DNA of 64,000 nucleotides from contig NZ_RAWO01000002.1 of the NCBI RefSeq assembly GCF_003668955.1, forward strand, positions 279,605 to 343,604. Reading direction: 5' to 3'. Source of the DNA: Corallococcus sp. AB038B. GTDB taxonomy: Bacteria; Myxococcota; Myxococcia; Myxococcales; Myxococcaceae. Below are positions 16,906-55,548 of this stretch, piece by piece (position 1 is the first letter of the stretch; each line of letters begins with the position of its first letter). The notes under the pieces are model-generated. The model did no database searches. It worked only from the letters and a program-made list of their open reading frames with translations, and had not been told where the DNA came from. A program made the position numbers and the translations under genes.

Positions 16906-17110
16906 ACTCGCGTCGCGACCCGGGGGAAGCACCCGCCTTGCTATGACTTGCATGGCTTGGCTGTTTTCACGCATTTGAAGACATGTCCTGGAGGGCGCAC
17001 CGGATGAAGGCGTGCGTCCTGGCGTGCTATGTCCATGCGCATCGCGCGGGGGGCTTCCGCGTGGCGCTGCATGGGTGGGGGGCCCCGCCCGTCGAGGTGA
17101 GGCTTCCTTC

Positions 17111-20058: not shown

Positions 20059-21912
20059 TCAGCGTCTCAGGCTGTTGATCTGCTCCTCGATGAGGGCGCG
20101 GACCTTGGGATACAGCTTTTTTCGGCTGACGGAATGTGAAACCCGCATGAAGTAGGACAAGCCTCCGATAGAAACGGGAGGCGTGAACTCAAGCTTGTTC
20201 CGAGCAAGGGGGGACGGTTCAACAGCCTTATAGGGAACGTTCATGCCGCTCGCCTTGGGAAGAGCCTGCATGAACGGAGAAGAAACCAGGGTGACCTCCA
20301 ATTGCCCGACGCTTCGTTCCTTGAGAATGCCAACATGGGTCTCGAGCACTGCGCACAGCTCCGCGAGTGCCGCGACCGCTGGAATGCTGATCATTCCGCT
20401 GGCCTCGCGGAAGAGTCTCCCCGGATCGGTTGGAAGCGCCATCAGATTGGACGGCAGGTACTTGTTTGCTTTCAGCCAGACCACCAGCCAGTCAAGTGTG
20501 CGCCGGATCGTGGTGACGGTTTTTCCCTGTTCGGCGATCAGCGTGCTCACAGGGGCATGATTCGCCAGAAGGGTGAAGACGAGGTTCATCAAATCAGTTC
20601 GAGCGACGGTACTGGCATATCTGGCTTCACACTTTTCCAGCCGGCCAACGAAGTTGTCGAAGTTGGCATCAAGATGGAACTGCGCGTACTTGTCCTCCTT
20701 GGTGACGTCGACGTCGACGATCCGGTTCGCGAAGGGCGATTGCGCGTACTGGGCCTTGGGGGATGAAGTCGTGTTGTCGAATTTGTGGATCTGTTGCTCA
20801 AGGACCTGGGCAAGCAGGTCCCACAATGGACCGCTCAGGGTCTTCGGATTGATTTGAAGGAGCTTGGAGACGGCTCTCAGGGGGCTTGAGACATTCAAGT
20901 CGTCGAAAAAGCCCATGAGCGGGTAGCGTCCGCTGGCCTTTCGGGCCTGGAACGCCTTGAGCGCTGGCGACAGGCTGGTCTCGACTTTGTTCAGCTCGGC
21001 CTGAAGCCGATTGGCGAGATCGTTGTTGATGATCTGTCGATTCTTTGGGGCATCGCCTGTCATCTCCACGGGCACGTCGAACTTGATGACGTTGTTGAGC
21101 GCGCAGATGACCTCGCGGGCCTTGGCAAGGGCGGTCTTGACGCTGTTGAGGGTGTTGATGCAGCTGTCGTAGAGCGCCTTCCCCTTGGCCGGATCCATCA
21201 ACAGCTTCAAGTCAATCCATAGGGAAGGGTCGGCATCCTTGAGTCTCGTGGACTTGACGGCGTCCTCGAACACACGGGTGTCGAACGTTATCTTCTTGAG
21301 CTGGGCGCCGAAGTCGTCGAATTCGGACCGCTTGAAGGCATCGTGAAAAGGGAGGAGTGAGAAGTCGGCAACGACCCTCTGGGTCAGGTCGTATTTGTTG
21401 TAGACGTTGATGATCTTGCACTCCTTGTGGAGTGCCTTGGTGTTGACGTGGTGTTGCTTCGTGAAGAACGGTGTCGAGAGATAGGTGATGCTGCGGATCT
21501 TCCAGCGCTGGGGCCATGCGACGGCTGCCTGGGCCGTCAGTTCGTTGATGACATTCCCGCCATGTGAATGGCCAATGAGATGGAATGCGACTTCCTGGTT
21601 GAGGAAGCCCTTGTAGTAGGCGCTTTTCCCGTTGGCGCCACAGAGGCGGTTGGCCAGGTAGGTCCCCGCGATCGTACGGTTGGACGAGCCATTGTCCCCC
21701 GTCCATCCGTGAGCCGTGAAGATATGGACATTGGTGTAACGCTTGTGGATTTCGTCGATGGCAAGCCACAGGTCAGGGTTTTCCTGCCAGTACCAGTCTG
21801 GGTCGTTGATGCTTTTCTTGCGCTGATAACTCGCGGAGCGCGCCTTCAAGTCGCTGTTGACCGGGTCTACTGTTCCGCTCACCAAGACGATGATGTTGGG
21901 AATGTCGGACAT
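20059..21912 (-). CDS. Alpha/beta-hydrolase-fold protein, putative lipase/esterase (GHSHG nucleophile elbow); no signal peptide
   Basis: N-terminus MSDIPNIIVLVSGT..HGWTGDN....FHLIGHSHGGNV, followed by a ~400-aa helical C-terminal region. ATG at 21912; the ORF-track extension is rejected. Confidence 0.55.
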   Translation of the reverse strand: MSDIPNIIVLVSGTVDPVNSDLKARSASYQRKKSINDPDWYWQENPDLWLAIDEIHKRYTNVHIFTAHGWTGDNGSSNRTIAGTYLANRLCGANGKSAYYKGFLNQEVAFHLIGHSHGGNVINELTAQAAVAWPQRWKIRSITYLSTPFFTKQHHVNTKALHKECKIINVYNKYDLTQRVVADFSLLPFHDAFKRSEFDDFGAQLKKITFDTRVFEDAVKSTRLKDADPSLWIDLKLLMDPAKGKALYDSCINTLNSVKTALAKAREVICALNNVIKFDVPVEMTGDAPKNRQIINNDLANRLQAELNKVETSLSPALKAFQARKASGRYPLMGFFDDLNVSSPLRAVSKLLQINPKTLSGPLWDLLAQVLEQQIHKFDNTTSSPKAQYAQSPFANRIVDVDVTKEDKYAQFHLDANFDNFVGRLEKCEARYASTVARTDLMNLVFTLLANHAPVSTLIAEQGKTVTTIRRTLDWLVVWLKANKYLPSNLMALPTDPGRLFREASGMISIPAVAALAELCAVLETHVGILKERSVGQLEVTLVSSPFMQALPKASGMNVPYKAVEPSPLARNKLEFTPPVSIGGLSYFMRVSHSVSRKKLYPKVRALIEEQINSLRR

Positions 21913-21959
21913 GGCTTTTCTCGTGTCGTGAACTGGGAACAACAGGGCCAGGGCCGCGC

Positions 21960-22943
21960 TCACCACCCGCCGCTGGCGCCACCTCCGCCGGAACGACCGC
22001 CCATTCCCTTGAACGCGGTCTCCGTCAGCGGCTGGCTCTTCAACGCGGGATGGAGATCCAGCAGGTACTGGACCCACTTCTTCGCGTTGAGCTCCCGCGG
22101 CGTTTCGAATTCCGCCTTCCGGCGATACACGCCCCGCCATTCAGGTTGGGTTGCCCAAAGAGAGGCACCGTCATCCGTGCCATAGGTCTTGGGGTGGCCT
22201 ACGTTCAGACGGAAGCCCTTGGAGTGGACGTAGTTCGCGAGCAGGTTGCTCCAGAGGGAGATGATGGTCTCGCGGATGTCGACGAAGATCCCGGGATCCA
22301 CCTCCATGAGCTTGAACAGGAGCAGCGAGGATCGCTCGACCGCCGAGGACTCCAGGTAGAAGACGGGGGTGGGGCCGCCACTGTAGGGCGTGAACTTACC
22401 GCTTTCGACCTTGCCGACCTGGAGACTCCCTGCGTTCCATCCGGGCATCCCTGGCTGCAGGAGGCCGAAGACCCAGGACCGGCGGCCCGCGAGGAAGTGA
22501 TACGCATTGTATTGAATCAAGACGGAGAGCGCCGAAAGCGGCAGGATCGACAGGGGCTTCTCCAGGCCCTCCGAGAAGTTGCGCTTGAGCGTCTGCGCGG
22601 CGAACCCCTTGTTGGGATCCTGCCAGAGGACGTGGACCCAATCGCTGTGGAAGTCAGGCAGGTTGATGCCCAGCGCCGCGAGCTTGACGTCGAGCAGGAA
22701 GCGAAGCGTCCGGGTTTGCTCGAACTGCCGGGTCGACCAGGCCACGCTCGCCTGGTTCTCCTGCATGTTCTTGCCGAGCCCATTGAAGAACTTGGGAAAG
22801 TCCTTGGTGAACTCCGCCACGAGCAACGGGAGCTGCTTCTGCGGATCGCCCTGGAGCCCGGGGACGCTGAAGTGGATCCGGAATTGATTCACATGGAAGT
22901 TGCCACTGCCCCTGGCGATCTTGAGCTCCGTGAAGTCCATCAT
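21960..22943 (-). CDS. Hypothetical protein with a Gly-rich C-terminus
   Basis: 327 aa, no recognisable motif, C-terminus GMGGRSGGGGASGGW. Sandwiched between the two hydrolase genes. Confidence 0.45.
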   Translation of the reverse strand: MMDFTELKIARGSGNFHVNQFRIHFSVPGLQGDPQKQLPLLVAEFTKDFPKFFNGLGKNMQENQASVAWSTRQFEQTRTLRFLLDVKLAALGINLPDFHSDWVHVLWQDPNKGFAAQTLKRNFSEGLEKPLSILPLSALSVLIQYNAYHFLAGRRSWVFGLLQPGMPGWNAGSLQVGKVESGKFTPYSGGPTPVFYLESSAVERSSLLLFKLMEVDPGIFVDIRETIISLWSNLLANYVHSKGFRLNVGHPKTYGTDDGASLWATQPEWRGVYRRKAEFETPRELNAKKWVQYLLDLHPALKSQPLTETAFKGMGGRSGGGGASGGW

Positions 22944-22958
22944 CCACCTCCTGGTGGG

Positions 22959-24725
22959 TTACCGGGGACCAGAAGAGCGCTGTGCCGAGCTTCTTCCCAG
23001 GCTCCCCTGGTTGATGAGGGGTAGCCTCGTCGCCACGTACGTATTGTCACGGTCCATGGTCAGCCGGTCCGGTTGAAGCATCTTTGCGTCGAATTTCGGA
23101 GGAGGAAGATGCAGCGACTTGATGACAAGGCCTTGCATTCCCCCCACTTCATCGAGTGCGACCTTCAGCGTCACAAGCGGAGGAAGGAGTGTGCGAGCGA
23201 GTTTGGGCAGGGGAGAGTCGTAAGACATAACCTCTTTCATGAAGGACTTGCCCGGAGCCCCCATGATCGCGTCGATCTGCTTCATCACCGACCGGTAGAG
23301 TCCCGGGATATTGAGCACCCCCAGGCGTTTCTGTCGCATCTCCTCGACGATGGGGCTGTGGATGTTGTCGTTGGACTGGCCGGATGACTGGGGGCCTACC
23401 GTGAGCCGGGTGCGTTTGGTGGTCCCGTTGGGGCCCAGCAAGCGCTGGCTGTGGAGAGCCCCAAGCGCCCCTCCCACGCTTTTGGCAGCATCGTAGTCCC
23501 CTCCGGCCCAGGCGATTAGCCCCGCAGAGAGCAGTTCCTTGATGTTGGAGGTCCTCATCGCCGCTGGGAACAGCTCCCTCTTGACGACGATCTTGAGGAC
23601 GATGGTCAGCACATCGGTGAGGAGATCATCTACCTTGCGCAGAGAGCCATTCTTGAGAAGCCTCCGCAGCTCCGCCGTGGCGGCTCCCTCCAGGATGGTG
23701 GCGCTGCCTGCAAGCAACGTCTCGCCTGCGAGTGAGACGACATCTCCCTGGGTGAGATAATGAGTCGCCAGCGGACCCTTGGGGGACTTGAGGCGGTTCG
23801 CGGTCTTTCTATCGACGCCGGGTGAGTTGAAGGTCACCACCTGGAGAACCGAGTCCCCGAAATCGACCGCCACCCGCTGCGCCATGGCGCCACCCAGGCT
23901 GTGTCCGACGACAACGATGTCCTTCCTGCCAATGCGCGTCAGCAGTGTCTGGAAGAGCGCGCGGGTCTGCTTGAAGGCAGTTGCGCCAACCCCTGCGGGG
24001 TCCATGTCCGCGACGGCATCAGGTGCCTTCTCGAACTCGGTGCCGCGGACCGCGATGATGGGATGGTTTCCACGGGATGGCTGCAGCCAGTAGGCGAACA
24101 CGCCATGGGTCTTGTTATGGGGGTCGCTGCCCTCCATCTGGACAATGGTGTAGTACAGGGGCTGTATGCCCGGCTTCTTGGAGTAGGGGCGTTTGGTTGA
24201 GACGGCATAGGTCGCCGGGAACTTCAGCTCGGGCATTGCCCAGAGCTCCGGCGTTTCAGCGCGATACAGGAACCTGTCGACCTGGATGCCAGCCCGTGTG
24301 CCGCCGCCCTGGTTGTTCAGATAGGCGAAGTCGTGAGCCAGGTACTCGTAGAACTCGTGGTCGGGCGTGAAGTCCTCGGCCAATGGCTCGGGTGGCGCCT
24401 TGGGCATGACGATGGGCCGCGTGGCAACCCGGGTGTTGTCCTGGAGGATGTGCTGGGTCTGTCGACGGAGCGCGTTCAGATCAATACGAAGCGCATTGGA
24501 AGGCGACGCGTGTGTCTTTGCCGCTCCCGAGCCGGACGCCACCGCCAACACGTTGGACTCCGGGATGTAGACCTTGTCACCCGGTTTGATGTGGTCGGGA
24601 TTGGGTCGTGCCTTCCGGAGCGCGGCGTTTCGTGGGTCTTTGTATACGACGCGCCAGTCCGCGATCCGGTAGGACACCGCGATGCTGTACAGGGACTCTC
24701 CAGCCTTGACGACATGCTGGGTCAT
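22959..24725 (-). CDS. LysM domain + class-3 lipase (Lipase_3) fusion protein; no signal peptide
   Basis: N-terminal LysM (HVVKAGESLYSIAVSYRI...IKPGDKVYIP). Lipase_3 signatures IIAVRGTE and VVGHSLGGAMAQ. Its ATG overlaps the stop of the giant upstream gene as ATGA. Confidence 0.65.
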   Translation of the reverse strand: MTQHVVKAGESLYSIAVSYRIADWRVVYKDPRNAALRKARPNPDHIKPGDKVYIPESNVLAVASGSGAAKTHASPSNALRIDLNALRRQTQHILQDNTRVATRPIVMPKAPPEPLAEDFTPDHEFYEYLAHDFAYLNNQGGGTRAGIQVDRFLYRAETPELWAMPELKFPATYAVSTKRPYSKKPGIQPLYYTIVQMEGSDPHNKTHGVFAYWLQPSRGNHPIIAVRGTEFEKAPDAVADMDPAGVGATAFKQTRALFQTLLTRIGRKDIVVVGHSLGGAMAQRVAVDFGDSVLQVVTFNSPGVDRKTANRLKSPKGPLATHYLTQGDVVSLAGETLLAGSATILEGAATAELRRLLKNGSLRKVDDLLTDVLTIVLKIVVKRELFPAAMRTSNIKELLSAGLIAWAGGDYDAAKSVGGALGALHSQRLLGPNGTTKRTRLTVGPQSSGQSNDNIHSPIVEEMRQKRLGVLNIPGLYRSVMKQIDAIMGAPGKSFMKEVMSYDSPLPKLARTLLPPLVTLKVALDEVGGMQGLVIKSLHLPPPKFDAKMLQPDRLTMDRDNTYVATRLPLINQGSLGRSSAQRSSGPR

Positions 24726-27700
24726 GACGCCCGCTCCTTCTGGAGCTGATTCCGCCGTCCCTGGCGTGCCAGCCCCAGGCCCAGCAGGAGCAGCAGTGCC
24801 AGTGCCGCGCCGCCATCCCCGCTGGTTCCACAGGCGCAGCCGCCGCCCGTGCCTCCCAGCGTCCGGGCCTGGCCCTTCAGCGTGAGCGAGGCCTCCGCCG
24901 TCGTCTCTCCTCGCAGGCGCAGCTTCAGCGTTCCTTCCGCGGGGCCTCCCACCTCTCCGTGGAAGGTGACGCTCACCGTCGTCTGGGCTCCCGGCGCCAG
25001 CTCCGCGTCCAGGGCGCTCGCGTCGATCACGAACGCCGGGTTGGTGTTCTCCACCACGCTCAACCTCGCCGGCGACGCGGACTGGTTCGTGAGCGTCACC
25101 GTGCGCGCCGTGCTGGTGGCGCCAATGTCCACCCAGCCCAGATCCAACTCGAACGGCTCGATGGTCAGGAAGCTGGCCACCGAGATGCCCGAAAGGGCCA
25201 CCAGCGCCGCGCGCTCCTGGTCCTTCGTGCCCACGACCAGCGTCGCCCTCGACGCGCCAATCTGCGTGGTGTCGTACTTCAAATCCAACGTCAGCGAGTC
25301 ACCCTGCGGCAGGGCACGGCCTTCCGCTCCCAGGATGGGAGACAGCACCACGAAATTCGCGGCCTGGGGCCCCTCCACCTTGGGTGGCATCACCACCAGC
25401 TCCTGGGTGCTGTCGTTGATGAGCACCACCTTGGTCGTCGCCGGCTCCGCCTGGCGCACGGTGCCGAAGTCCACCGTGCGGTTGAGCGCCCGGAACACCG
25501 TGGAGAGCCCCCGGCCTGACAACGATACCTGCGCGTTCGGAGACTCAAGGTCGCTCGTCACCACCAGGAGGTTGGCCTTCGACGTGACGTCCGGACGGGG
25601 GACGAACTTGACGGAGATTTCCCTCGACTCCTGGGCCGCCAGCGTGAAGGGGAGCGTGGGCGCTGAATCCAGGCTGAAGTGCGAGGGCTCGGAGTTCTCC
25701 GCCGCGCCGATGATTTCCAGCCCGCGCACCACCAACGGCTGGAGTGATTCGTTGGTGAGCCGCACGGAACGGATCGCCGAGGCGGAGGACTCGGCCACCC
25801 GCGCGCCAAACTCCAAGGTGGGCGTGGACAGGCTGAGCTGATTCGTCCGGCCCTGGCCCTTCAGCTGCACGAGCATGGTGCTCGTCTGGCTGTCTTCGGA
25901 GGTGATGCGCAGTTCCGCGGAGTAGGGCTGCTGGGTGCCCGGGCGGAACTGGACCGACACATCCATGCTGTTTCCTGCGTTCAGCACCAGCGGTAGCGAA
26001 GGCTTCTGCAGGATGAACGACGTCGGATCCGCCGCGTTCAGCGAGATGTCCTCCACCTTGAGCGTGCTCGATTCCGTGCCTGCGCCCCCGGAGCCAGCCG
26101 GCAGTGCATGGGTCAGCCTCAGTACGATGGCCTCCGAGGTCGTGTTCACCCGGACGCCTCCAAAATCAAGCGACCCGTCGAAGGCCTGGGCGTCCTTGCG
26201 GGTCACCGCGAGCCTTGCCAGCGTGGCCATTCCCTGCAGGCCGAGCTCCAGCGGAGCCTGGGAGGATGCCTCCACCCGCACCGAGGCCTTGGTCGTCCTG
26301 AGTCCGCCCGTCGCCCCCTGAGGGGTGAACCGAAGCTTCACGGAGGCACTGCCATTCGCGGGCACCCTGGGCAGCGTTTCCTGCACGGAGAACTCCGAAC
26401 TCCCCGGAGGGAGCGTCACGGAGATGTTCGCGTCGGTGATGCCTGTATTGGTCACCGTCACCGTCTTTTCCAGGAACGAGCCGAAGTTCACGCGCCCGAA
26501 GTCGATACTGGAGGGCGACAGGCTCACGCCGCCCACTCCATCCACAATCAGCTTCACGATGGTGCCTGACGGCTCCGCGTTGCTGGAGATGGTCAGGTTG
26601 CGCTCGATGGTGAGGAGTTGGGTGGGCTTTGCCGAGATGTAGACGTAATGCTCAAGGCCGGGGGCCACCGTGAAGATGGGCCCGGGCACGTTGGGGCTCA
26701 GGGAGGATTGGCAAGCCGTGGTTTGCTGCGAGTCCTCGCGCAGGCAGAACTGGTCCGGGACCTCCACGGCATAGACCACCAGCGGGGCCTTGCCGATGTT
26801 CTTCACCACCAGCCTCTTTGAATCCCCTTCGACATTGAGCGCCTGAGGCGCGAATTCGGGAGCGCCGCCGGGCAGCGTCAACACGGGGATGGTGCCCCGG
26901 CCCGAGACCGTGATGGTCTGGATCTGGCTGTCGCTCGAATTGCTCTGCACCTGCACGGTTCCAGTCACATCCTGCGCGACGTCAGGAGTGAAGGTGACGT
27001 CGAGCAGGGCGGACTCACTTCGCTGGAGGAAAACGGGGAACTGCGGGTTGTTCTGCAGCATGGCCTTGAAGGGGCCGATCGCCGTCGACACATTCTTGAT
27101 TTCGAGTGGGGCGGAGCCGATGTTCTTCAGCACGACGGTCTGGGTGCTGGAGGTTTGCCGGGGAACTTCGTTGAAAACGAGCTGCGTCGGGTTCATCTGC
27201 AGCTGTGCCACGGCGGCAACGCCGGACAGCTTGACGACCAGGCCCGCCGTGGCAGGCGGCTTCGTGGCGAGTGAGAGATTGGCTGAGTAGTTGCCAGAGA
27301 GCTGTGGAGCGAACGTGACATCGATCTGGCGCGTGCCATTCACCGGAACGATGGCGTTGGGCCAACCAAGGACGTCGATGTTGAACGTCCCGAGGTTGGC
27401 TGCCACCTCCGCCAGATCAACGTCAACATGTCCTGTGTTGATGATGTCCAGGGAAAGCGTGTTGGAGCTGCCCGGCTGCGTGGCGGTGAAAATCAAGTCC
27501 GCCTTCGACGTGGTGAATCTGGCCTCCGCGCCAAACCCCACGAGTGGGAAGCTGCGCGTCGTCCTGAGATTGCTCGTGGTCCCCAGGTAGGTGATCTCCA
27601 GGCGGGCCTCGTACTTCAGGTCCTCGATGATGGGACTGAAGGTCACCCGGAAGGGCTGGGGGCGCTTCACGCCCTTCTCGAGCACGGGCTCGGAGCTGTT

Positions 27701-30580
27701 GACGTTGTCCACGAAGAACGCCGTGCCGGACGGCTCGATGTGGATGTCGGTGACCTTCAGTGGCTCGGAGGCGGTGCTGCTGTTGGTCACGTTGAGGCTG
27801 ATGTCTGCGTGGATGAGCTTGTTCTGCTTGTAACCAAAGTTGATCTCGGTCGCGGTGAAGATGGCGTTGGGACCATTGGAGTTGCCCTTCACGACGAGCA
27901 CGGGCGGCAGCTGCCGGTCATTCGTGGTGAAGAAGCGCAGCCGCGTCTCCAGGTCGCCCGTGCTGGTCAGGGGACGGAAGCGCACCTTCACCTTGGTCTC
28001 TCCGCCTGGCTGCACGGTCTGGGGCAGGAAGTCGACGACCTGGAACAAGGCGTCGCTTTCCGCGGTGACCTTCGACAGGAACAGGGCCTGGTTGCCGGTG
28101 TTGCGCAAGGTCGCATCGGCCGTGGACTCTCCGCCGGGCGCCACGTTGGGCAACGTCAAGGGGTTGTTGACCAGGAACAGCTCAGGGGCGAACGCCTGTC
28201 CGGTGAGTGCCACGGGGGGCACGGGCTGCGAGGCATCCGTCTGGAGTTGGAGCGTCTTCGAATAGGTACCCGAGGTGGTCGCGGCGAAGGCCACCGTCAC
28301 CGCGGCGGTACCCCCGTTCTTCGCGACGGTCAGGCCCTCCGCCGGAATGCCGGAGATCGTGAACGGGGTCAGGACCCCGGGGGACACGGGGAACACCTTG
28401 ATGGGCCAGTTGGTGCTGTTCGAGAGGATCACCTGCTGGGTCGGGTACGGGTCGCCGACGGTGTAAACAGCGAAGGCCAGGGTGGTCGTGCTGACCGCCA
28501 GCGTGGTCTTGCGCGCGGTGCCATGGAGGGGAACGCTGGTCACGCAGGAGGTGGTGGGCGACGTGCCGAAGGTGAGCACGCCATTCACGGCACCGCTCTC
28601 GTTGGGGCCGGGGTTGAACGTGATGAAGAGCTCACGCCCCGCCGGGCCTGGCGCCAGGGTGAACGCCGTGCTGGGGCTCACGGAATAGGCGCTGCTCCCC
28701 GTCGTCACGGTGGGCGTCACCGTCAGCGGGACCGACCCTGTGTTGGTCACCGTCACCTTCTTCTGCTCACTGCCCACGTCTCCTGCCTCCTGTTCGGCGA
28801 ATTCGAACGAAAGGGGGTCGATACCCAGGCAGGCGTTGCCCGGCGTCGTGGTGCCGGACAGATTGAGTTCGGGGGCGGCGGTGTCGTTGCTGGTGAAGGT
28901 GAGCTTGCCGGTCGTGGCGCTCGTCGGCGTCGGGTGGAAGATCAGCTGCAGGCGCTGGGTATCTCCGGGCGCGAGGCTGAAGGTGCCCGAGGTGTCCACC
29001 CGGAAGGGTGAGTCCTGTGGCAGCGTCATCTGGGTCACCGTGAGCAGGCTGTCCCCGCCGTTCTTGACCGTGACCTCCTGGGGAGCGCTGTCGGTGTTGA
29101 AGGGCGTCTGCGCAAAGGCAATCGCGGTGCGGCTCAAGACGAGCTTCGGGCTGGATGGCGTGGTGCCTGAGAGCGTCAGGGACTGATCGGCGACATTGCT
29201 CTTGATGACCAGGGTGTCGGAGGCAGCCCCGGACGCACCCGGCCGGAACGTCACATTCAGGCGTTGGGTCCCCCCCGGGGCGATGCTGAAGGGGGCCGAT
29301 GTATCCACCCGGAAGGCGGAGCCCTGGCTCAACGCCAGTTGGGTCACGTTGAGCGCACTGCCGCCTTCGTTCCGGAGCGTGACCTCCTGGGGGATGCTGT
29401 CTGTGTTCAGCGGCGTCTGCGGGAAGACCATCGTCGTGCGGCTCAAGACGAGCTTCGCGGGAACGACCGCCGGAGTCGCGCCAGCCAGCGTGACGGCGGG
29501 CACGTCGGTGCCGGCGATGGTGAGGCTGAGGGTGTGGTTCCAGGTGCCCGTCACCGTCGGGCGGAACGTCACCCCCAGACGTTGGGTGCTGCCCTTCGCG
29601 AGGCTGAAGGGGCCCGTGGTGTCGACGCGGAACGGTGAGTTGGCGGGCAGCTTGACCTGGCTCACCGAGAGCAGTCCGTCGCCGTCGTTCCGGACGATGA
29701 CCTCCTGGGTGACGCTGTCGGTGTTCACCGGCGTGGCCTCGAAGGCCAGCGCGGTGCTGCTCACATAGAGCTTCGCGGGGGACAGCCCCTCACCGGTGAG
29801 CATGGCGGTTGGCGGGGCGGGGCACACGGCGGACGCGCTCGTCAGGAAGAGCGAGCCCGAGACGGGGCCCAGGTCGTTAGCGGTCAGGGGAGTGAAGGTC
29901 AACGCGAGCGTCGTCGAGCTCGCGGGCGGGATGGTCACCGTGGCGCCGGACACGTTGAAGGGCGCGGTGGCGGAAGGCTCCATTGTGAAGTTCGTATTGC
30001 CCAGGTTCATCACCGTGACGTTGCGCGGTGTCGAAGAACCCAATTCATGGGCACCGAACGCCACGGACGTCTGGCCGAGGACGACCAGTGGGCCCAGGGC
30101 CTTTCCATCCAGCGTCACGACGATCGACGGGGCGGCTGGATCGTTCGTGTGCAGCGTCAGCGTGCCGTGGAAGGTCCCGGGCTGAAGCGGCTTGAATCCA
30201 ATCTTCAAGGTCCTTGCGTTCGTGCTGCTCAGGGGCGTGTTCGGCACGGGGCAGTTGGTGTCGCATTTGTTGGACGACGTGTCGAAAATGCCCTCGAAGG
30301 TGAAACCCCCGGTGACGCTCACCCGGTGAATCGTGAGCTCCGTGGTGCTGGTGTTGAACAGCTTGATGGATTTCTCCGCCGACAGAGTCTGGCACGGGGC
30401 CTGGTCGTTGAAGTTGACGAGGGTGTCCGACACGCTGAGCGCCGCCGCGGGATCCTCGGGTCGCAGCGCCGCGCCGACGGTGCTCTTGGCGGTGCCGGAC
30501 TCCGGTGCCTTCTCCACCTCGGGACCGCAGGCGGTCAGGACGCACAGTGCAGCCGTCAGGATGAACAGGATGCGTTGCAT
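24722..30580 (-). CDS. Giant (1952 aa) MYXO-CTERM-anchored surface lipoprotein built of ASH / choice-of-anchor-D-like Ig-fold repeats
   Basis: Lipobox LTAC at the N-terminus. About 15 repeats of ~100 aa (..F..T.V...S..Q.V.L.N.G...L.V..V.L.....F.V....PF.L.PG..Q.L.V.F.P...G....L...SN). C-terminal GGGCACGTSGDGG + hydrophobic helix + RQGRR matches the MYXO-CTERM sorting signal. Confidence 0.8.
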   Translation of the reverse strand: MQRILFILTAALCVLTACGPEVEKAPESGTAKSTVGAALRPEDPAAALSVSDTLVNFNDQAPCQTLSAEKSIKLFNTSTTELTIHRVSVTGGFTFEGIFDTSSNKCDTNCPVPNTPLSSTNARTLKIGFKPLQPGTFHGTLTLHTNDPAAPSIVVTLDGKALGPLVVLGQTSVAFGAHELGSSTPRNVTVMNLGNTNFTMEPSATAPFNVSGATVTIPPASSTTLALTFTPLTANDLGPVSGSLFLTSASAVCPAPPTAMLTGEGLSPAKLYVSSTALAFEATPVNTDSVTQEVIVRNDGDGLLSVSQVKLPANSPFRVDTTGPFSLAKGSTQRLGVTFRPTVTGTWNHTLSLTIAGTDVPAVTLAGATPAVVPAKLVLSRTTMVFPQTPLNTDSIPQEVTLRNEGGSALNVTQLALSQGSAFRVDTSAPFSIAPGGTQRLNVTFRPGASGAASDTLVIKSNVADQSLTLSGTTPSSPKLVLSRTAIAFAQTPFNTDSAPQEVTVKNGGDSLLTVTQMTLPQDSPFRVDTSGTFSLAPGDTQRLQLIFHPTPTSATTGKLTFTSNDTAAPELNLSGTTTPGNACLGIDPLSFEFAEQEAGDVGSEQKKVTVTNTGSVPLTVTPTVTTGSSAYSVSPSTAFTLAPGPAGRELFITFNPGPNESGAVNGVLTFGTSPTTSCVTSVPLHGTARKTTLAVSTTTLAFAVYTVGDPYPTQQVILSNSTNWPIKVFPVSPGVLTPFTISGIPAEGLTVAKNGGTAAVTVAFAATTSGTYSKTLQLQTDASQPVPPVALTGQAFAPELFLVNNPLTLPNVAPGGESTADATLRNTGNQALFLSKVTAESDALFQVVDFLPQTVQPGGETKVKVRFRPLTSTGDLETRLRFFTTNDRQLPPVLVVKGNSNGPNAIFTATEINFGYKQNKLIHADISLNVTNSSTASEPLKVTDIHIEPSGTAFFVDNVNSSEPVLEKGVKRPQPFRVTFSPIIEDLKYEARLEITYLGTTSNLRTTRSFPLVGFGAEARFTTSKADLIFTATQPGSSNTLSLDIINTGHVDVDLAEVAANLGTFNIDVLGWPNAIVPVNGTRQIDVTFAPQLSGNYSANLSLATKPPATAGLVVKLSGVAAVAQLQMNPTQLVFNEVPRQTSSTQTVVLKNIGSAPLEIKNVSTAIGPFKAMLQNNPQFPVFLQRSESALLDVTFTPDVAQDVTGTVQVQSNSSDSQIQTITVSGRGTIPVLTLPGGAPEFAPQALNVEGDSKRLVVKNIGKAPLVVYAVEVPDQFCLREDSQQTTACQSSLSPNVPGPIFTVAPGLEHYVYISAKPTQLLTIERNLTISSNAEPSGTIVKLIVDGVGGVSLSPSSIDFGRVNFGSFLEKTVTVTNTGITDANISVTLPPGSSEFSVQETLPRVPANGSASVKLRFTPQGATGGLRTTKASVRVEASSQAPLELGLQGMATLARLAVTRKDAQAFDGSLDFGGVRVNTTSEAIVLRLTHALPAGSGGAGTESSTLKVEDISLNAADPTSFILQKPSLPLVLNAGNSMDVSVQFRPGTQQPYSAELRITSEDSQTSTMLVQLKGQGRTNQLSLSTPTLEFGARVAESSASAIRSVRLTNESLQPLVVRGLEIIGAAENSEPSHFSLDSAPTLPFTLAAQESREISVKFVPRPDVTSKANLLVVTSDLESPNAQVSLSGRGLSTVFRALNRTVDFGTVRQAEPATTKVVLINDSTQELVVMPPKVEGPQAANFVVLSPILGAEGRALPQGDSLTLDLKYDTTQIGASRATLVVGTKDQERAALVALSGISVASFLTIEPFELDLGWVDIGATSTARTVTLTNQSASPARLSVVENTNPAFVIDASALDAELAPGAQTTVSVTFHGEVGGPAEGTLKLRLRGETTAEASLTLKGQARTLGGTGGGCACGTSGDGGAALALLLLLGLGLARQGRRNQLQKERAS
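28840..29780 (-). repeat. Three near-identical tandem ~310-bp repeats inside the giant gene (approximate bounds)
   Basis: Repeated peptides PAKLVLSRT..F.QTP.NTDS.PQEVT..N.G.S.L.VTQ..L.Q.S.FRVDTS..FS.APG.TQRL in the translation. Confidence 0.5.
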
Positions 30581-30589
30581 GAGACGACC

Positions 30590-31105
30590 TCAGTTCTCGG
30601 CGTGGAGGGCCGGGGCCTTGGCGGAAGAGGAGGGTGGAGGCTTCGGGGCGGCGGGCGGCTCGGGCGGCTTCGCCGCGTCGTCGCTTTCCTTGGGCGCCGC
30701 GGGCTGCGTTCCCGTGCGGATGCGCCCTTCGAGCAGCTCGATGTCCAGCGAGCCGGGCGTGGGCGTGTTGACGAACTGCTGCCAGGTGCCGTCCGGTGCG
30801 GTGAACAGGAACGACACCGCCACCGGCGCGGCGGCGTCCGGCAGCGGCACCTTCAGGCGCTGCAGCGTTCCCGGATAGATGAGCGCGGACAGCAGCACGT
30901 CCGCGTCCGGTTGGAAGATGCGCGCGGAGACCTCGCCGTAGGACTCCACGGCGAACTGCTTCGGGTCCACCTTGCGCACCAGCATGTACAGCGGCCGGCC
31001 CTGGTTCGTCCCGGACGGCGCCTTCACGCTCAGGTGCAGCGTGCTCGGCTGGCACGCGGCCAGGAAACACAGCGCCAACGGGATACAGCTCGCCCACGGT
31101 TTCAT
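30590..31105 (-). CDS. tssJ: Small outer-membrane lipoprotein, putative TssJ
   Basis: Lipobox LAAC, a ~120-aa beta-rich core and a P/A-rich tail. Its ATG overlaps the tssM stop as ATGA. Assignment rests on size, lipoprotein nature and its position after tssM. Confidence 0.5.
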   Translation of the reverse strand: MKPWASCIPLALCFLAACQPSTLHLSVKAPSGTNQGRPLYMLVRKVDPKQFAVESYGEVSARIFQPDADVLLSALIYPGTLQRLKVPLPDAAAPVAVSFLFTAPDGTWQQFVNTPTPGSLDIELLEGRIRTGTQPAAPKESDDAAKPPEPPAAPKPPPSSSAKAPALHAEN

Positions 31106-34100
31106 CGCGGCACCTCGCGGAACGGGATCCAGGGCTCACCTTTGAGCCCGAAGCGCAGGTCCATCATCCCGTCCGTGGACAGGGCACCTCGCGCTCGCAA
31201 CGACCAACGGCGGTGCTGCGGGTCTTCCGTGGACTGCGAGGACTCCAGCAGCCGGAAGCAGCTCCACGCCGAACGTGACTTCTCCAGCGACGCGTACTGC
31301 ACGGACTGGTCCGCGGGCGCTCGCACCTCCAGCATCAGCGACGCCGTCTGCTGGTCCCACCACGCGAGCGGGAACTCCTGCCACGACGGACTCTGGTTGT
31401 ACGCGAGGAACGTCGTCTTGCCGCACTTGAGCGAACCCAGCGTCACGAAGCTGCCCTGCGTGGGTGCCTTCGGCAGTGGCAACGGCATCACCTGCAGCAT
31501 CAGGGGCCGGGGCCTTCCCTCCGGGTCCCACAACATGCGGGCCAGCCGCGACAGCCTCCCCAGCGTGGGCAACATCCCCTGCGGCAACGACAGCCGGGAC
31601 TGGAGCGCGCCTCGCGGCACCCACTCCGAGCCTCGCTCCTCGCACACCGGCGCCAGCACCCGCGTCACGAACTCCCAGAACGCTCCGTCCTGCTTGCGCA
31701 GGACCTCCAGGTCTCCCGGATCCACCTCCTGGGTCGCGTCCGGCGTGAACGGATAGCGATTCAGCAGCGGACGCAGGAACCGGCTGGATGCGTCGTCCCA
31801 GTGCCGCTCCAGGGTCCGCTCAATCTCGCGCTGCCCCAGGTCTCGCACCGCGAGGAACGGCTGGCGGAACGGTTGCCGCAGCTCTCCGATGAGCCCCTGT
31901 TGATCCAACCACGCGTCCACCTTGCGCAGGTAGGACGTGTCGTCCTCCAGCATCATCGCGAAGGCCAGCCGCCCCAGCGGCGTCAGCAGCTCCGGCAGCT
32001 TCGCGGCCCCGCTCGCCAGCTGCGCGCTGCCGGTGGCCAGGCCCCCGTTGAGCGACGCCGTCGCCTCCGCGGGCACCACGCCCGGACGGGGCACCGCGTT
32101 CAGCTCGTCCGACATCTGGGCCACCAGCGCGCGGTAGGGGTTGAGCGCCGTGTAGTTGCCCGTCTCATCCGGCTTCATCACCGTGGCGATGGGCTTGAAC
32201 GGCGCCACCGCGTTGCGCAGCGACTCGTAGAAGGGGCCGTCCAACGGCTCCAGCGCCACGCCCTGCGACACGTCGCGCAGCATGTCCACCAGCTCCGAGG
32301 ACGGCTGCGTGAGGCGCGACAGCTCCTCCGCCAGGAGCGCGGGAATCACCGCCTGGAAGCGGTAGGTGGACACGCGCTGGAACAGCCGGTTGCGGTACTG
32401 GAACGCGAACTGGTTCACCTTGCGGCGCACGTGCTCCTGGCGCTGCGACACCTCCTCCACCGGGAGCCCCGCGCCCTTGATTCGCGTGGTGAACTCGTCC
32501 ACCAGCGGGCGCAGCCGCGTGTCGAACTCCAGCCGGTCCGCCGCCAGGGTCGCGCCACCCCGCGACGCCACCGCCTCCTCGCCCTCCACCACGCCGAAGG
32601 GCAGGCGCCCCGTCTTCTCGTGGTAGCGCAGGAGCGCCTGGTGCAGCAGGCGCGAGCCGTCCTTGGGGCGGAACTCGAAGGTGCTCTGGAGCACCGGCAC
32701 CTGGAGCACCGCGGGGCCGTTGCCCGGCAGCCACAGGCCGTCGCGCACCAGCAGCTCCGCCACGGTCATCTTCTGCACCGCCTTCACGCCCAGGTACGCC
32801 TCTTCCTCCATGCGCAGCACGTTCGTCAGCGCGTCCCGGTGGTCGTTGATCCACGCCACCGTCTTGAGCGTGGAGGGGATGCCCCGGAAGCGACTGGTGT
32901 CCACGCGCGCCTCGGAGGCCGCCAGGAGCTCCAACGCACGCGGCAGGCTGCTGAAGCGCGCGCTGTCATCCAGCAGCGCCTGGAGCCGCCTGCGTTCGTC
33001 CTGCATGGACTCCAGCTCCGCGTCCAACCGCTCCAGCTCGCGCGGCTCCACGGCCCGGTTGCCCAGCAGGTCCTGCAAGCGCCGCAGGTGCGCCTGCCAC
33101 GGCATCAGCTGCGCCTCCAGCGTGAGCGGCTCCGGGAAGGGCCAGCGCGCCCAGCTGGCCTCGGGCGTGTCCGGCGCGGACCACGGCGGATTGCTCATGA
33201 CGACGTAGTCGGCCACCAGGGACTCATTCAGCCCCACCGCCGTCACCCAGGTGCGCCCCGCCTCCAGCGCGGCCACGTCGCCGGGGGACTCAACCTCGCT
33301 GCCTTCCGACACGAAGCTCCAGGTCGGGCGCGTCTTCAGGCTGGACAGCACCAGCTGCCCCAGCGGCTCTTCGCGCGAGCCGTGCAACGTGGCCAGCAGG
33401 TAGACGACCTGCTCCGGACGGCACGTGTCCGGCTGGCGGTGGCACTTCTCCAGCGCGGGCCGGATGTGGGCCTCTCGGATGCCCCGCGCCAGGCGCTGGC
33501 GCAGGTCCTCTCGCGCGCCGGTGAAGCTGTAGCGCAACAGCGGCCACGCGTTCATCGCCCTCCACAGTGAGTCCAGGGACTGGCCAGCCGCGAGCACCGG
33601 CTCCTGCACCGCGACCCCGGACACCTCCTGCCCCTGGTCGCGCATGCGCTGGACCATGTCCTCGAAGCGCTGCACGCGCGTGCGCGCCTGGCCCAGCCTC
33701 CACGCGAAGTGCCCGTACGCGGCCAACAGCGGCAGCGCGAACGCCAGGCCCAGCAGCGCCGCCCGGCGCAGGTGCGTGTGCATGTAGCGCTCGTGGACCG
33801 CCTTCGCCGTGCTCGCCTCGGCGGACACCGAGAGGACGTCCGGGTCCCTCGCGTCCTTGTCCGCGGAGGACAGCGACACCGTGGCCAGCCGGGGCGCGTA
33901 CGCCAGCGTCTGGCCCTCCATCAGCGCCGTCACGAAGCGCGACAGCGCCTCGAAGGGCGCGTGGCCTTCCGAATAGAAGCGCTCCAGCCGCTCGAAGGAC
34001 TCCACCGGCAGCGCCGTCAGGCCCAGCGCCAGGTACTGCTCCTGCGCCTTGAGCAGCGAACCCAGCTTGGGCTCCTGGCCGGGCGGGGGGAGGGGGAAGC

Positions 34101-34806: not shown

Positions 34807-35121
34807 TCAGCGCTCCCCCCAGCCCAGGACGCGCCCAGCCCGGCCCGAGCGATGCAGGGCCTCCAGGACGTCCTCCAACGTGTCCACCATGCCCGCGAAC
34901 GACGCGCGCGCCTTCTCCTGCTCCTCCGGTGACAACCGCGCGTCACCCGGCCCCGGCATCAGGCGGGCCAGCGTCTGGCCCAGTTCGTCCAGCATGGGTT
35001 CCAGGCCAAAGGTCCCGACCCCCAGGCGCGCGGCGATGAGCCGCCGCACCTCCTGGAGCAGGGCGGGCGCGGCGTCGATGGGGGGCGCGGGCGGAGTCTG
35101 GGGAGCGGCTTGAGGCTTCAC
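34807..35121 (-). CDS. Small hypothetical protein (104 aa) between tssL and tssM
   Basis: GTG start overlaps the tssL stop as GTGA. Its stop lies 4 nt before the tssM ATG. GC-rich codon bias. The ORF-track N-terminal extension is rejected. Confidence 0.4.
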   Translation of the reverse strand: MKPQAAPQTPPAPPIDAAPALLQEVRRLIAARLGVGTFGLEPMLDELGQTLARLMPGPGDARLSPEEQEKARASFAGMVDTLEDVLEALHRSGRAGRVLGWGER

Positions 35122-35756: not shown

Positions 35757-35767
35757 CGCGCCCCCCG

Positions 35768-55538: not shown

Positions 55539-55548
55539 AACCAGGAGG

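What the first reader, a model, noticed from the sequence alone, without database searches (positions are those of the whole stretch)
24722..30580. 1952-aa MYXO-CTERM lipoprotein made of about 15 ASH/choice-of-anchor-D-like repeats inside a T6SS operon
It has both an N-terminal lipobox and a C-terminal MYXO-CTERM sorting signal. The protein is therefore a large surface-anchored, fibre-like protein. It contains three near-identical ~310-bp internal repeats, which are recombination hot-spots. Its ATG lies 9 nt from the tssJ-like stop. A surface adhesin co-expressed with a contact-dependent weapon could mediate target-cell contact or self-recognition.
Basis: partly seen in the sequence, partly recalled or inferred. 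Interest (0 to 1): 0.6.

Follow-up and report, generated by a model that had tools for sequence, protein, structure and literature searches.

The report
Hypervariable surface fibre in T6SS operon
A 1952-residue protein made of 17 bead-like domains, with membrane-anchoring signals at both ends, is encoded inside a bacterial "nano-speargun" operon in six genera of soil myxobacteria, and it evolves far faster than its neighbours, so it may be the fibre that decides which neighbouring cell the weapon touches.

Summary
The ORF is real: window 24722-30580, minus strand, 1952 aa, Corallococcus exiguus. It consists of a lipoprotein signal (LTAC), 17 tandem choice-of-anchor-D/ASH Ig-like domains, and a MYXO-CTERM tail. 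The tail scores 26.7 bits alone and 19.6 in the full-length protein, against a cut-off of 20.

The gene sits 9 nt after an IglE-type tssJ and overlaps a lipase-like gene by 4 nt, in a tightly packed ten-gene operon of a Francisella-like T6SS. The "three near-identical repeats" claim fails. The repeats are 64-73% identical in DNA, and the longest shared exact run is 22 nt.

New findings:
- **Synteny.** The order tssM-tssJ-giant gene is kept in one T6SS clade across six genera. Two sister clades lack the gene.
- **Divergence island.** The gene is a sharply bounded hypervariable island. Flanking genes are about 95% identical in protein where this one is 51-58%. dN/dS reaches about 1 in the N-terminal domains.
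- **Conserved ends.** The signal peptide, the last three domains and the sorting tail stay conserved. Domain number varies from 15 to 21.

Best reading (about 0.5): a polymorphic cell-surface fibre about 60-75 nm long that mediates contact or target recognition for this T6SS. This would be analogous to Vibrio TasL, not homologous to it. No function has been tested. I rate it a new variant of a known kind, interest about 0.6.

The parts
24722..30580 (-). Whole gene: a 1952-aa lipoprotein-signal / 17 Ig-like domain / MYXO-CTERM protein (stop codon at 24722-24724).
   Evidence: It is 99% identical to the NCBI 'choice-of-anchor D domain-containing protein [Corallococcus exiguus]' P0001.
30527..30580 (-). 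Signal peptide with lipobox L-T-A-C (aa 1-18; Cys18 is the predicted lipidated residue; the +2 residue is Gly).
   Evidence: Read directly from the sequence. It is nearly invariant in 16 of the 18 Corallococcus orthologues; the other two start later as annotated. LLASC / LLAAC / WLCAC equivalents occur in Vitiosangium, Archangium, a MAG, Cystobacter and M. fulvus.
24872..30430 (-). Array of 17 tandem Ig-like (choice-of-anchor D / ASH) domains, aa 51-1903, one roughly every 110 aa.
   Evidence: Own HMM, 17 domains at 46-98 bits each. NF012200 scores 421 bits in 16 stretches. Pfam PF22544 scores 303 bits. The AF2 model of aa 1580-1910 shows three beta-sandwiches with mean pLDDT 80. Foldseek top hits are ASH-domain ciliary central-apparatus proteins, CEP192 SPD-2 and tandem-Ig adhesins.
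28853..29761 (-).
   Evidence: 64-73% nt identity and 48-55% aa identity. The longest shared exact run is 22 nt. Copy number in this region differs between alleles.
25850..30520 (-). Hypervariable cassette (about aa 20-1580: the linker plus domains 1-14).
   Evidence: Against other Corallococcus strains, nucleotide identity drops from 90-95% in tssM/tssJ to 65-80% or undetectable exactly at the gene start. It recovers to 88-93% at about 25.8 kb. Per-domain dN/dS is 0.5-1.07 here, against 0.17-0.35 in domains 15-17.
24872..25828 (-). Conserved C-terminal module, domains 15-17 (aa 1585-1903).
   Evidence: 65-95% aa identity across Corallococcus alleles, and at least 79% in all but the most divergent one, P0014. 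The last domain is the only one with above-background identity across genera: 36-47% with positional correspondence in four of the five complete orthologues.
24725..24868 (-). MYXO-CTERM sorting tail (aa 1905-1952; the HMM match covers aa 1912-1943; Cys1915 and Cys1917).
   Evidence: TIGR03901 scores 19.6 bits on the full-length protein and 26.7 bits on the isolated tail. The tail is nearly invariant in Corallococcus.
30588..30591 (-). GAGG Shine-Dalgarno-like motif that overlaps the tssJ stop codon, within the 9-nt gap before the ATG.
   Evidence: Read directly from the sequence.
30590..31105 (-). TssJ-like outer-membrane lipoprotein of the Francisella IglE type (171 aa, lipobox LAAC). It overlaps tssM by 4 nt.
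   Evidence: PF22361 IglE_N scores 105 bits. NF041245 T6SS_IglE scores 39 bits, below its cut-off.
31102..34803 (-). TssM/IcmF-like inner-membrane T6SS subunit (1233 aa).
   Evidence: Weak IcmF_helical and IcmF_C hits, and TIGR03348 on the C-terminal region. Homologues are named type VI IcmF.
34807..37627 (-). Upstream genes of the same operon: tssK (36374-37627), a short VgrG-like gene (35768-36346), dotU/tssL (35118-35756) and a 104-aa ORF (34807-35121).
   Evidence: The precomputed Pfam hit DotU is on record for the orthologues.
20059..24725 (-). Downstream genes of the same strand: a LysM + lipase/phospholipase-like protein (22959-24725; its start overlaps the giant gene's stop by 4 nt), a 327-aa partner (21960-22943) and a 693-aa protein with a weak alpha/beta-hydrolase hit (20059-22140). 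These are probable T6SS effector modules.
   Evidence: PF26363 Phospholipase-like is on record for the orthologues. GC is lower here, 0.58-0.62.

Best explanation
The gene encodes a polymorphic cell-surface fibre that acts as an accessory of one clade of Francisella-like T6SS in myxobacteria.

**Shown**
- The architecture is a lipoprotein signal, 17 Ig-like domains and a MYXO-CTERM tail.
- The gene lies in a tight ten-gene operon, directly after tssM-tssJ and before lipase-type effector genes.
- This gene order is kept in six genera.
- A sharply bounded hypervariable cassette (domains 1-14) lies between a conserved signal peptide and a conserved C-terminal module with its sorting tag.

**Inferred**
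- After Sec export, the C-terminal tag is lipidated and cut by myxosortase MrtX. The type II secretion system then moves the folded protein to the cell surface, as shown for TraA in M. xanthus.
- The conserved domains 15-17 form the membrane-proximal stalk.
- The variable domains extend about 60-75 nm outward (17 domains at about 3.5-4.5 nm each).
- The variable domains bind structures on neighbouring cells. They hold prey or non-kin within reach of the T6SS, or distinguish them, much as the large lipoprotein TasL does for Vibrio fischeri T6SS2.

**Unresolved**
- The fate of the N-terminal lipid is not known. It could be a second anchor in the same outer membrane, making a loop, or something else.
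For: **Architecture and sorting signals**
- establish the domain layout and both signals.
- MYXO-CTERM proteins are cleaved by MrtX and displayed on the surface through the T2SS (PMC11980579).

**Operon packing**
- Gene junctions are a 4-nt overlap, a 9-nt gap with GAGG, and a 4-nt overlap.
- Terminator-like sites are no more frequent than in shuffled sequence, and none lies at these junctions.

**Synteny**
- The order tssM-tssJ(IglE_N)-giant Ig protein is found in Corallococcus, Pyxidicoccus fallax, Vitiosangium, Archangium lansingense and a MAG, and in Myxococcus fulvus and Cystobacter ferrugineus.
- It holds in M. fulvus even though the rest of that cluster is rearranged.
- It holds where the downstream effectors differ.
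- The sister clades B (about 51% TssM identity) and C (about 44%) lack the gene.

**Hypervariability**
- TssK, TssM and TssJ are 94-97% identical in protein where the giant protein is 51-58%.
- Gene-wide dN/dS is 0.52-0.56, against mostly 0.1-0.3 in the neighbours. The short VgrG-like gene is the exception at 0.5-0.7. dS is also raised.
- Per-domain dN/dS is 0.96-1.07 in domains 1-3 and 0.17-0.35 in domains 15-17.
- The boundaries of the divergent block are sharp.
- Alleles in strains named C. exiguus range from 65% to 99% identity.
- Alleles are mosaics, and domain number varies from 15 to 21.

**Precedents**
- TasL is a putative lipoprotein of over 380 kDa in the Vibrio T6SS2 island. It is needed for contact-dependent killing and for target choice (PMC9040878).
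- Fibres about 60 nm long and of unknown identity were seen at the M. xanthus T6SS by cryo-tomography (bioRxiv 10.1101/108233).
Against: - No expression, localisation or phenotype data exist for this protein or any orthologue.
- Synteny shows linkage, not function.
- Raised dN/dS together with raised dS could reflect relaxed constraint, or misalignment of paralogous repeats, rather than diversifying selection.
- The most variable parts include central domains 9-14 as well as the N-terminal tip. This fits a simple "variable tip" model only loosely.
- An N-terminal lipid anchor does not fit well with a free distal tip.
- The full-length protein scores 0.4 bits under the MYXO-CTERM cut-off, and the Archangium and Vitiosangium tails score only 14.6-17.8 bits.
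- The M. xanthus antennae belong to a different T6SS cluster (MXAN_4800-4813).
- TasL is not in an operon with T6SS genes. It has FN3-like repeats, which were not detected here.
Confidence: 0.5

Rival explanations
1. It is a generic surface adhesin or coat protein that merely rides in the operon. On this reading it is one of the dozens of MYXO-CTERM surface proteins that myxobacteria make. It would serve substrate or cell adhesion, or the matrix, with no specific role in T6SS firing or targeting.
For: - Multi-domain choice-of-anchor D proteins are common. The best non-orthologous homologues, P0019 and P0020, are not next to T6SS genes.
- Myxobacterial genomes typically carry dozens of MYXO-CTERM proteins (PMC11980579).
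- Surface proteins are often hypervariable because of phage or predator pressure.
Against: - The position directly after tssJ is kept in six genera, although the protein itself has diverged to about 30% identity and the downstream genes have been replaced.
- The gene junctions suggest translational coupling.
- The gene is confined to one T6SS clade.
Confidence: 0.2
2. It is a homotypic kin-recognition receptor, like TraA. Identical alleles on two cells would bind each other. The T6SS would then be held back or aimed according to allele match, so that the locus defines social compatibility groups.
For: - The protein carries the same sorting tag as TraA, which is a polymorphic MYXO-CTERM receptor (PMC11980579; the abstracts of PMC3820747 and PMC6372800 as listed).
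- Alleles within one named species are deeply diverged, at 65-99% identity.
- Alleles are mosaic cassettes.
- The T6SS is implicated in kin discrimination in M. xanthus (PMC8632748).
Against: - TasL, the only tested T6SS-linked lipoprotein, acts heterotypically.
- There is no PA14-like or other dedicated recognition domain.
- Variation is spread over 14 domains rather than concentrated in one.
Confidence: 0.15
3. It is a structural element inside the envelope. The N-terminal lipid would sit in the inner leaflet of the outer membrane (placed by Lol), and the uncleaved C-terminal helix in the inner membrane. The Ig chain would form a periplasmic tether or cage around the TssJ-TssM complex.
For: - The gene directly follows the two subunits of the membrane complex.
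- The +2 residue after the lipobox Cys is Gly. This is not the Lys that I recall being reported as the inner-membrane retention signal in M. xanthus (from my own knowledge, not checked here).
- Having two membrane-anchoring signals would suit a protein that spans two membranes.
Against: - An extended chain of 15-21 Ig domains (about 55-90 nm) is much longer than a periplasm of roughly 30 nm, and its length varies between strains.
- Extreme sequence variability is not expected for a part that docks to conserved periplasmic partners.
- The tail matches the tag that is known to be cleaved for surface display (PMC11980579).
Confidence: 0.1
4. It is a defensive surface layer or decoy. The long variable fibres would keep phages, tailocins or foreign contractile weapons away from the membrane, or mask receptors.
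For: - Hypervariability is typical of host-parasite arms races.
- A phage-tail-like cluster lies in the same window.
Against: - No defence-system model matches the protein (PADLOC).
- This reading does not explain why the gene is fixed behind tssJ in one T6SS clade.
Confidence: 0.05

Closest known systems
TasL, the type VI secretion associated lipoprotein of Vibrio fischeri T6SS2 (PMC9040878)
   Same: - Both are very large predicted outer-membrane lipoproteins made of repeated beta-sandwich modules and encoded within a T6SS gene cluster.
- TasL is predicted to reach up to about 70 nm from the cell.
- Experiments link TasL to the cell-cell contact needed for T6SS killing and to the choice of target strain.
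- The TasL authors already noted large lipoproteins near T6SS clusters in other bacteria, including M. xanthus MXAN_4798.
   Different: - No homology has been shown. TasL has FN3-like repeats and is over 380 kDa. This protein has choice-of-anchor D/ASH domains and is about 198 kDa.
- TasL is transcribed on its own, not within an operon. This gene is packed between tssJ and effector genes.
- This protein also carries a C-terminal MYXO-CTERM tag.
- It belongs to a Francisella-like T6SS, not a canonical one.
- Its function is untested.
TraA and other MYXO-CTERM surface proteins of Myxococcus xanthus (PMC11980579; Sah et al. 2020, as cited there)
   Same: - Both have the same tripartite C-terminal sorting tag: a Cys motif, a helix and an Arg-rich end.
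- Both are polymorphic between strains.
- Both have a stalk of repeats leading to the tag.
- The expected route is the same: MrtX cleavage followed by T2SS-dependent surface display.
   Different: - I recall TraA having an ordinary signal peptide and a PA14-like variable domain (own knowledge, not checked here). This protein has a lipobox signal and no distinct head domain.
- TraA works with TraB in outer-membrane exchange, not with a T6SS.
Tail-fibre-like 'antennae' at the M. xanthus T6SS (Chang et al., bioRxiv 10.1101/108233)
   Same: - They are extracellular fibres about 60 nm long that arise from the outer membrane around a myxobacterial T6SS, one to six per machine.
- Their protein identity is unknown.
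- Their length matches an extended chain of 15-17 Ig-like domains.
   Different: - They were seen at the M. xanthus MXAN_4800-4813 system, which is a different cluster.
- The authors found no candidate gene in that operon.
- A bulb-like tip was described, and no head domain is evident in this protein.
- The link is by analogy only.
Eukaryotic ASH-domain proteins (HYDIN, CFAP65/74, CEP192) and bacterial choice-of-anchor D proteins (NF012200)
   Same: - They share the domain family by HMM and by fold.
- NCBI already names the 99%-identical protein 'choice-of-anchor D domain-containing protein'.
   Different: - The eukaryotic proteins are intracellular parts of cilia and centrosomes.
- Generic bacterial members are not linked to T6SS genes.

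Membership tests
Choice-of-anchor D domain proteins (NCBIfam NF012200) | The HMM score reaches the curated cut-off of 45 bits. | tested here: met
   421 bits in 16 stretches.
ASH / HYDIN-VesB-CFA65-like Ig domains (Pfam PF15780, PF22544) | The HMM score is above the gathering threshold, and the fold is a beta-sandwich. | tested here: met
   PF22544 scores 303 bits and PF15780 scores 223 bits. The AF2 model of three domains is all-beta with pLDDT 80. Foldseek top hits are ASH-domain ciliary proteins, with E-values down to 1e-22.
MYXO-CTERM sorting domain (TIGR03901) | The HMM score reaches the curated cut-off of 20 bits. | tested here: met
   The result is borderline. The full-length protein scores 19.6 bits. 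The isolated 58-aa tail scores 26.7 bits, and Corallococcus orthologue tails score 25.1-32.2 bits. The Vitiosangium and Archangium tails score only 17.8 and 14.6 bits.
MYXO-CTERM sorting domain (TIGR03901) | [quoted passage not shown] | tested here: met
   The tail reads GGGCACGTSG / AALALLLLLGLGLA / RQGRRNQ..., ending 15 residues after the first Arg. The layout is conserved in orthologues of six genera.
MYXO-CTERM sorting domain (TIGR03901) | Cleavage by myxosortase MrtX and T2SS-dependent surface display. | not testable with these tools
   Known for TraA (PMC11980579). It needs experiments here.
Bacterial lipoproteins (signal peptidase II substrates) | A signal peptide that ends in a lipobox [LVI][ASTVI][GAS]C. 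| tested here: met
   MQR-ILFILTAALCV-LTAC. The check was by inspection and regular expression only, because no SignalP or LipoP tool was available. The motif is conserved across genera. Lipidation itself cannot be tested here.
TasL-type T6SS-associated lipoproteins | Sequence homology to Vibrio TasL. | not tested
TasL's FN3-like repeats were not detected here by Pfam, so homology is unlikely.
TasL-type T6SS-associated lipoproteins | A large predicted outer-membrane lipoprotein encoded within a T6SS cluster. | tested here: met
TasL-type T6SS-associated lipoproteins | The protein is required for contact-dependent T6SS killing when contact is limiting. | not testable with these tools
   It needs genetics.
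Core T6SS components (TssA-TssM, Hcp, VgrG, PAAR) | A match to any T6SS component family. | tested here: not met
   Pfam and NCBIfam return only Ig-like repeat families and the sorting tag. The protein has a Sec signal, so it is not a tube or spike cargo.
Francisella-type (T6SSii-like) gene cluster (context of the gene) | Components specific to the Francisella pathogenicity island: an IglE-type TssJ, IglI and a short VgrG. | tested here: inconclusive
   IglE_N scores 105 bits, above its cut-off. The IglI family scores 232 bits against a cut-off of 100. The short 192-aa VgrG-like protein matches T6SS_TssI_Fran only weakly, at 21.6 bits against 100. TssK, TssF, TssB and TssC match the general T6SS models. 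No phylogeny was made.

The most novel reading that the evidence does not exclude
The protein is the extracellular "antenna" of a myxobacterial T6SS. Several copies would be anchored around the TssJ-TssM channel through the conserved C-terminal module. The hypervariable domains 1-14 would read the surface of the neighbouring cell and so decide which cells are held and attacked, or spared as kin. The lipid on the distal N-terminus could insert into the neighbour's outer membrane, making a two-lipid bridge between cells. If so, this would give a molecular identity to the T6SS fibres seen by cryo-tomography. It would also be a genetically swappable specificity cassette for a contractile weapon, as tail fibres are for phages.
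Probability: 0.15. Interest if true: 0.85.

Novelty: new variant of a known kind. Interest (0 to 1): 0.6.

Why it matters
How T6SS-armed bacteria find or choose the cell they attack is largely unknown. Only one accessory adhesin, Vibrio TasL, has been tested. The fibres seen at the Myxococcus T6SS have had no gene assigned since 2017.

This locus offers a clear candidate:
- It is fixed in the operon behind the membrane-complex genes in six genera.
- It is built like a fibre about 60-75 nm long.
- It has a sharply bounded 4.7-kb hypervariable cassette that could be swapped between strains to test target or kin specificity.

It also poses a cell-biology puzzle. The protein has a lipoprotein signal at one end and a lipid-attachment sorting tag at the other, and neither the Lol pathway nor the current MrtX/T2SS model has been examined for such a substrate.

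The surrounding T6SS itself carries Francisella-island markers, although reviews describe that type as unique to Francisella.

Tried and rejected
- **Exact-sequence look-up.** Nothing was on record for the protein. The organism was identified through the 99%-identical P0001 instead.
- **Tandem Repeats Finder.** No arrays were found.
- **Protein self-BLAST.** No off-diagonal hits appeared. The domain array became visible only with an iterated HMM.
- **PADLOC defence models.** Nothing relevant matched.
- **PDB sequence search.** Only HYDIN matched.
- **The two best non-Corallococcus homologues, P0019 and P0020.** They are not orthologues and are not next to T6SS genes. The true orthologues in other genera are too diverged for the word-based protein search and were found through tssM synteny.
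- **Literature on proteins with both a lipobox and MYXO-CTERM.** Nothing was found.
- **"Recombination hot-spot" from near-identical repeats.** Rejected on the identity figures.
- **T6SS effector or cargo.** Rejected because the protein has a Sec/lipoprotein signal and no T6SS cargo domains.
- **Periplasmic strut.** Considered unlikely because of the protein's length, its length variation between strains and its variability.
- **ORF 34807-35469.** I first scanned it as one gene. It is really the 104-aa ORF plus out-of-frame sequence, and dotU is at 35118-35756.
- **Not used.** None would have tested function.
Full report
**1. The observation**

The ORF at 24722-30580 on the minus strand is real. 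It encodes 1952 aa from an ATG. Its GC3 of 0.87 is typical of genes in this 68% GC window.

The N-terminus is MQRILFILTAALCVLTAC, a textbook lipoprotein signal with lipobox L-T-A-C.

The C-terminus is GGTGGGCACGTSGDGGAALALLLLLGLGLARQGRRNQLQKERAS. It has the Cys motif, hydrophobic helix and Arg-rich end that define MYXO-CTERM.
- The NCBIfam model TIGR03901 gives 19.6 bits on the full-length protein, 0.4 bits below its cut-off of 20.
- On the isolated tail it gives 26.7 bits. Corallococcus orthologue tails give 25-32 bits.
- I therefore treat the tag as present.

For the repeats, the choice-of-anchor D model scores 421 bits in 16 stretches, and the Pfam ASH/HYDIN/Cep192 Ig-like families score strongly. 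A domain HMM that I iterated from the protein itself finds 17 consecutive domains covering aa 51-1903, with no room for any other domain.

An AlphaFold2 model of the last three domains has mean pLDDT 80 and is three beta-sandwiches. Its best structural matches are ASH-domain proteins of the ciliary central apparatus, CEP192, and tandem-Ig adhesins.

The mature protein is about 198 kDa, acidic (pI 5.3) and rich in Thr, Ser, Leu, Ala and Val.

The claim of three near-identical ~310-bp repeats does not hold.
- The three copies at 28840-29766 (domains 3-5) are 64-73% identical in DNA and 48-55% in protein.
- They share at most 22 identical bases in a row.
- Tandem Repeats Finder reports nothing.
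- All other domain pairs are 15-34% identical.

**2. The surroundings**

The gene is part of a tightly packed minus-strand operon, in this order:

| Gene | Window coordinates |
|---|---|
| tssK | 36374-37627 |
| 192-aa VgrG-like gene | 35768-36346 |
| dotU | 35118-35756 |
| 104-aa ORF | 34807-35121 |
| tssM | 31102-34803 |
| tssJ | 30590-31105 |
| this gene | 24722-30580 |
| LysM + lipase/phospholipase-like gene | 22959-24725 |
| 327-aa gene | 21960-22943 |
| 693-aa weak hydrolase gene | 20059-22140 |

The gene junctions are very short.
- tssM and tssJ overlap by 4 nt.
- The tssJ stop is 9 nt from this gene's ATG, with a GAGG in between.
- This gene's stop overlaps the next ATG by 4 nt.
- Terminator-like motifs are no more frequent than in shuffled sequence, and none lies in these junctions.

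tssB, tssC, an IglI-family gene and tssF are transcribed divergently.

The cluster carries markers of the Francisella pathogenicity island:
- The TssJ is of the IglE type (PF22361, 105 bits).
- The IglI-family protein scores 232 bits against a cut-off of 100.
- The VgrG-like protein is short.
- I found no ClpV in the window, although not every ORF was scanned.

**3. Organism and relatives**

The protein is 99% identical to a Corallococcus exiguus protein that NCBI names "choice-of-anchor D domain-containing protein". Clear orthologues (51-99% identity, 1670-2420 aa) come only from Corallococcus. After them, identity falls to 30% or less. The best of those distant hits are not next to T6SS genes.

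Synteny was more informative than sequence similarity. Relatives of the tssM gene form three groups in Myxococcaceae and Archangiaceae.
- **First group (TssM at least 63% identical).** tssJ is followed by a giant protein with 14-21 complete Ig-like domains, a lipobox and a Cys/helix/Arg tail. This holds in Corallococcus species, Pyxidicoccus fallax, Vitiosangium, Archangium lansingense, a Myxococcaceae MAG, Myxococcus fulvus and Cystobacter ferrugineus.
  - It holds although these proteins are only about 30% identical to the window protein.
  - It holds although the rest of the M. fulvus cluster is rearranged.
  - It holds although the downstream genes differ.
- **Two other groups (about 51% and 44% TssM identity).** The second of these includes a second cluster in Corallococcus itself. 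The one TssJ that I scanned from these groups is of the IglE type, but the operon ends at tssJ or runs into unrelated genes, and in most sampled loci a convergent coiled-coil protein comes next.

**4. Evolutionary behaviour**

Between Corallococcus strains, TssK, TssM and TssJ are 94-97% identical in protein and the lipase 87-89%. The giant protein is 51-58% identical in the same strains.

Pairwise Nei-Gojobori estimates give dN/dS of 0.52-0.56 for the giant gene. The neighbours mostly give 0.1-0.3, with the short VgrG-like gene an exception at 0.5-0.7. dS is also two to four times higher in the giant gene.

Sliding 300-nt comparisons show sharp edges.
- Identity falls from 90-95% to 65-80%, or to nothing detectable, exactly at the start of the gene.
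- It recovers to 88-93% at about window 25.8 kb, where domain 15 begins.

Domain by domain:
- The signal peptide, domains 15-17 and the sorting tail are conserved. Domains 15-17 are 79-95% identical in all but the most divergent allele, with dN/dS of 0.17-0.35.
- Domains 1-3 reach dN/dS of 0.96-1.07 in the closest informative pair.
- Domains 9-14 fall to 28-55% identity.

Different alleles are diverged in different blocks, so the alleles are mosaics. Domain number ranges from 15 to 21. Strains named C. exiguus carry alleles from 65% to 99% identity. Across genera, only the last domain keeps above-background identity (36-47%).

One caveat applies. Misalignment of paralogous repeats inflates both dN and dS in the most diverged pairs. 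The closest pairs (78% and 73% identity) are less affected and show the same pattern.

**5. Mechanism**

The steps that rest on established work are these. MYXO-CTERM proteins are inserted by their C-terminal helix in the inner membrane. [quoted passage not shown] This was shown for TraA (PMC11980579).

From this and the anatomy I infer the following.
- The protein is a surface fibre whose conserved domains 15-17 lie next to the membrane.
- Its variable domains extend outward.
- Taking 3.5-4.5 nm per Ig-like domain (general knowledge of such domains), 17 domains give about 60-75 nm.

The operon position, the clade-specific synteny and the variability argue that the fibre works with the T6SS in contacting or recognising neighbouring cells.

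There are two precedents.
- Vibrio fischeri TasL is a putative lipoprotein of over 380 kDa in the T6SS2 island. It is required for killing when contact is not forced and for the choice of target strains (PMC9040878). Its authors listed a large lipoprotein, MXAN_4798, near the M. xanthus T6SS.
- Fibres about 60 nm long and of unknown identity were seen at the M. xanthus T6SS (bioRxiv 10.1101/108233). That system is a different cluster, so the link is by analogy only.

The N-terminal lipid remains unexplained. It could anchor the other end in the same membrane, giving a loop, or it could do something else. I found no literature on proteins that carry both signals.

**6. Rival explanations**

- **A generic adhesin that merely sits in the operon (0.2).** This is hard to square with six-genus synteny through near-complete sequence turnover.
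- **A homotypic kin receptor like TraA (0.15).** This is a variant of the main idea and fits the polymorphism.
- **A periplasmic tether between the two membranes (0.1).** This is disfavoured by the protein's length, its length variation and its variability.
- **A defensive coat (0.05).** This has little support.

**7. Comparison and novelty**

The domain family, the sorting tag and the idea of a T6SS-associated large lipoprotein are all known, and the protein already has a generic database name.

Four things are new here:
- the combination of a lipobox and MYXO-CTERM on one chain;
- a fixed position behind tssJ in one clade of a Francisella-like T6SS across six genera;
- a bounded hypervariable cassette;
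- conserved ends.

I rate it a new variant of a known kind, with interest 0.6. It gives a concrete, testable candidate for T6SS target recognition in myxobacteria, but nothing about its function has been shown.

Noticed in passing
window about 20000-47100 (e.g. tssJ 30590-31105, IglI-like 41462-42433, VgrG-like 35768-36346): The T6SS cluster carries markers of the Francisella pathogenicity island. Its TssJ matches IglE_N at 105 bits, and an IglI-family protein scores 232 bits against a cut-off of 100. It also has a 192-aa short VgrG-like protein, and I saw no ClpV in the window. TssM relatives form three clades across Myxococcaceae and Archangiaceae. Reviews in the library describe T6SSii as unique to Francisella (PMC12955703 abstract, PMC5924787). 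No phylogeny was made.
   Followed up: partly
window 55462-62264 (+): A separate phage-tail-like or extracellular contractile injection system gene set lies here. It includes a sheath (PF04984/PF17482), a gp19-type tube, a CIS_tube protein and a GPD baseplate hub.
   Followed up: no
window 20059-24725 (-); also L001, L002, L057-L059: The region downstream of the giant gene has lower GC (0.58-0.62) and holds probable effector modules. These are a LysM + phospholipase-like 588-aa protein, a 327-aa partner with no signal peptide, and a 693-aa weak hydrolase. The region differs between Corallococcus strains: some carry Tle1-like + DUF3304 modules, and one carries a DDE transposase.
   Followed up: partly
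window 35768-36346 (-): The short VgrG-like gene has a high dN/dS (0.5-0.7) between Corallococcus strains, while its neighbours tssK and tssM are at 0.03-0.29. The estimate rests on few sites.
   Followed up: no
window 17012-19117 (+): A 701-aa rhomboid-protease + TPR protein flanks the T6SS island in the Corallococcus loci that extend that far, between the effector region and carB. I found no evidence that it processes the giant protein's tail.
   Followed up: no
L021 14189-16624 (-), L035 14332-16455 (-), L029 15701-17218 (-): In the two T6SS clades that lack the giant gene, a convergent 500-810-aa protein lies beyond tssJ, directly after it in most sampled loci. It has apolipoprotein-like coiled-coil repeats, and an unannotated protein of about 640 aa comes next.
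   Followed up: no
L062 about 19500-19900 (Myxococcus fulvus): The orthologue's MYXO-CTERM-like motif (GGGLSCTAGGDG...LLLLGLGARRRR) lies about 100 aa before the annotated stop. In this draft assembly the reading frame runs on past the tag.
   Followed up: partly
L002 9340-10001 (Corallococcus sp. M7): The annotated orthologue (1670 aa) starts about 660 nt after tssJ and lacks the signal peptide as called. This could be a mis-called start, a frameshift or a real truncation.
   Followed up: no
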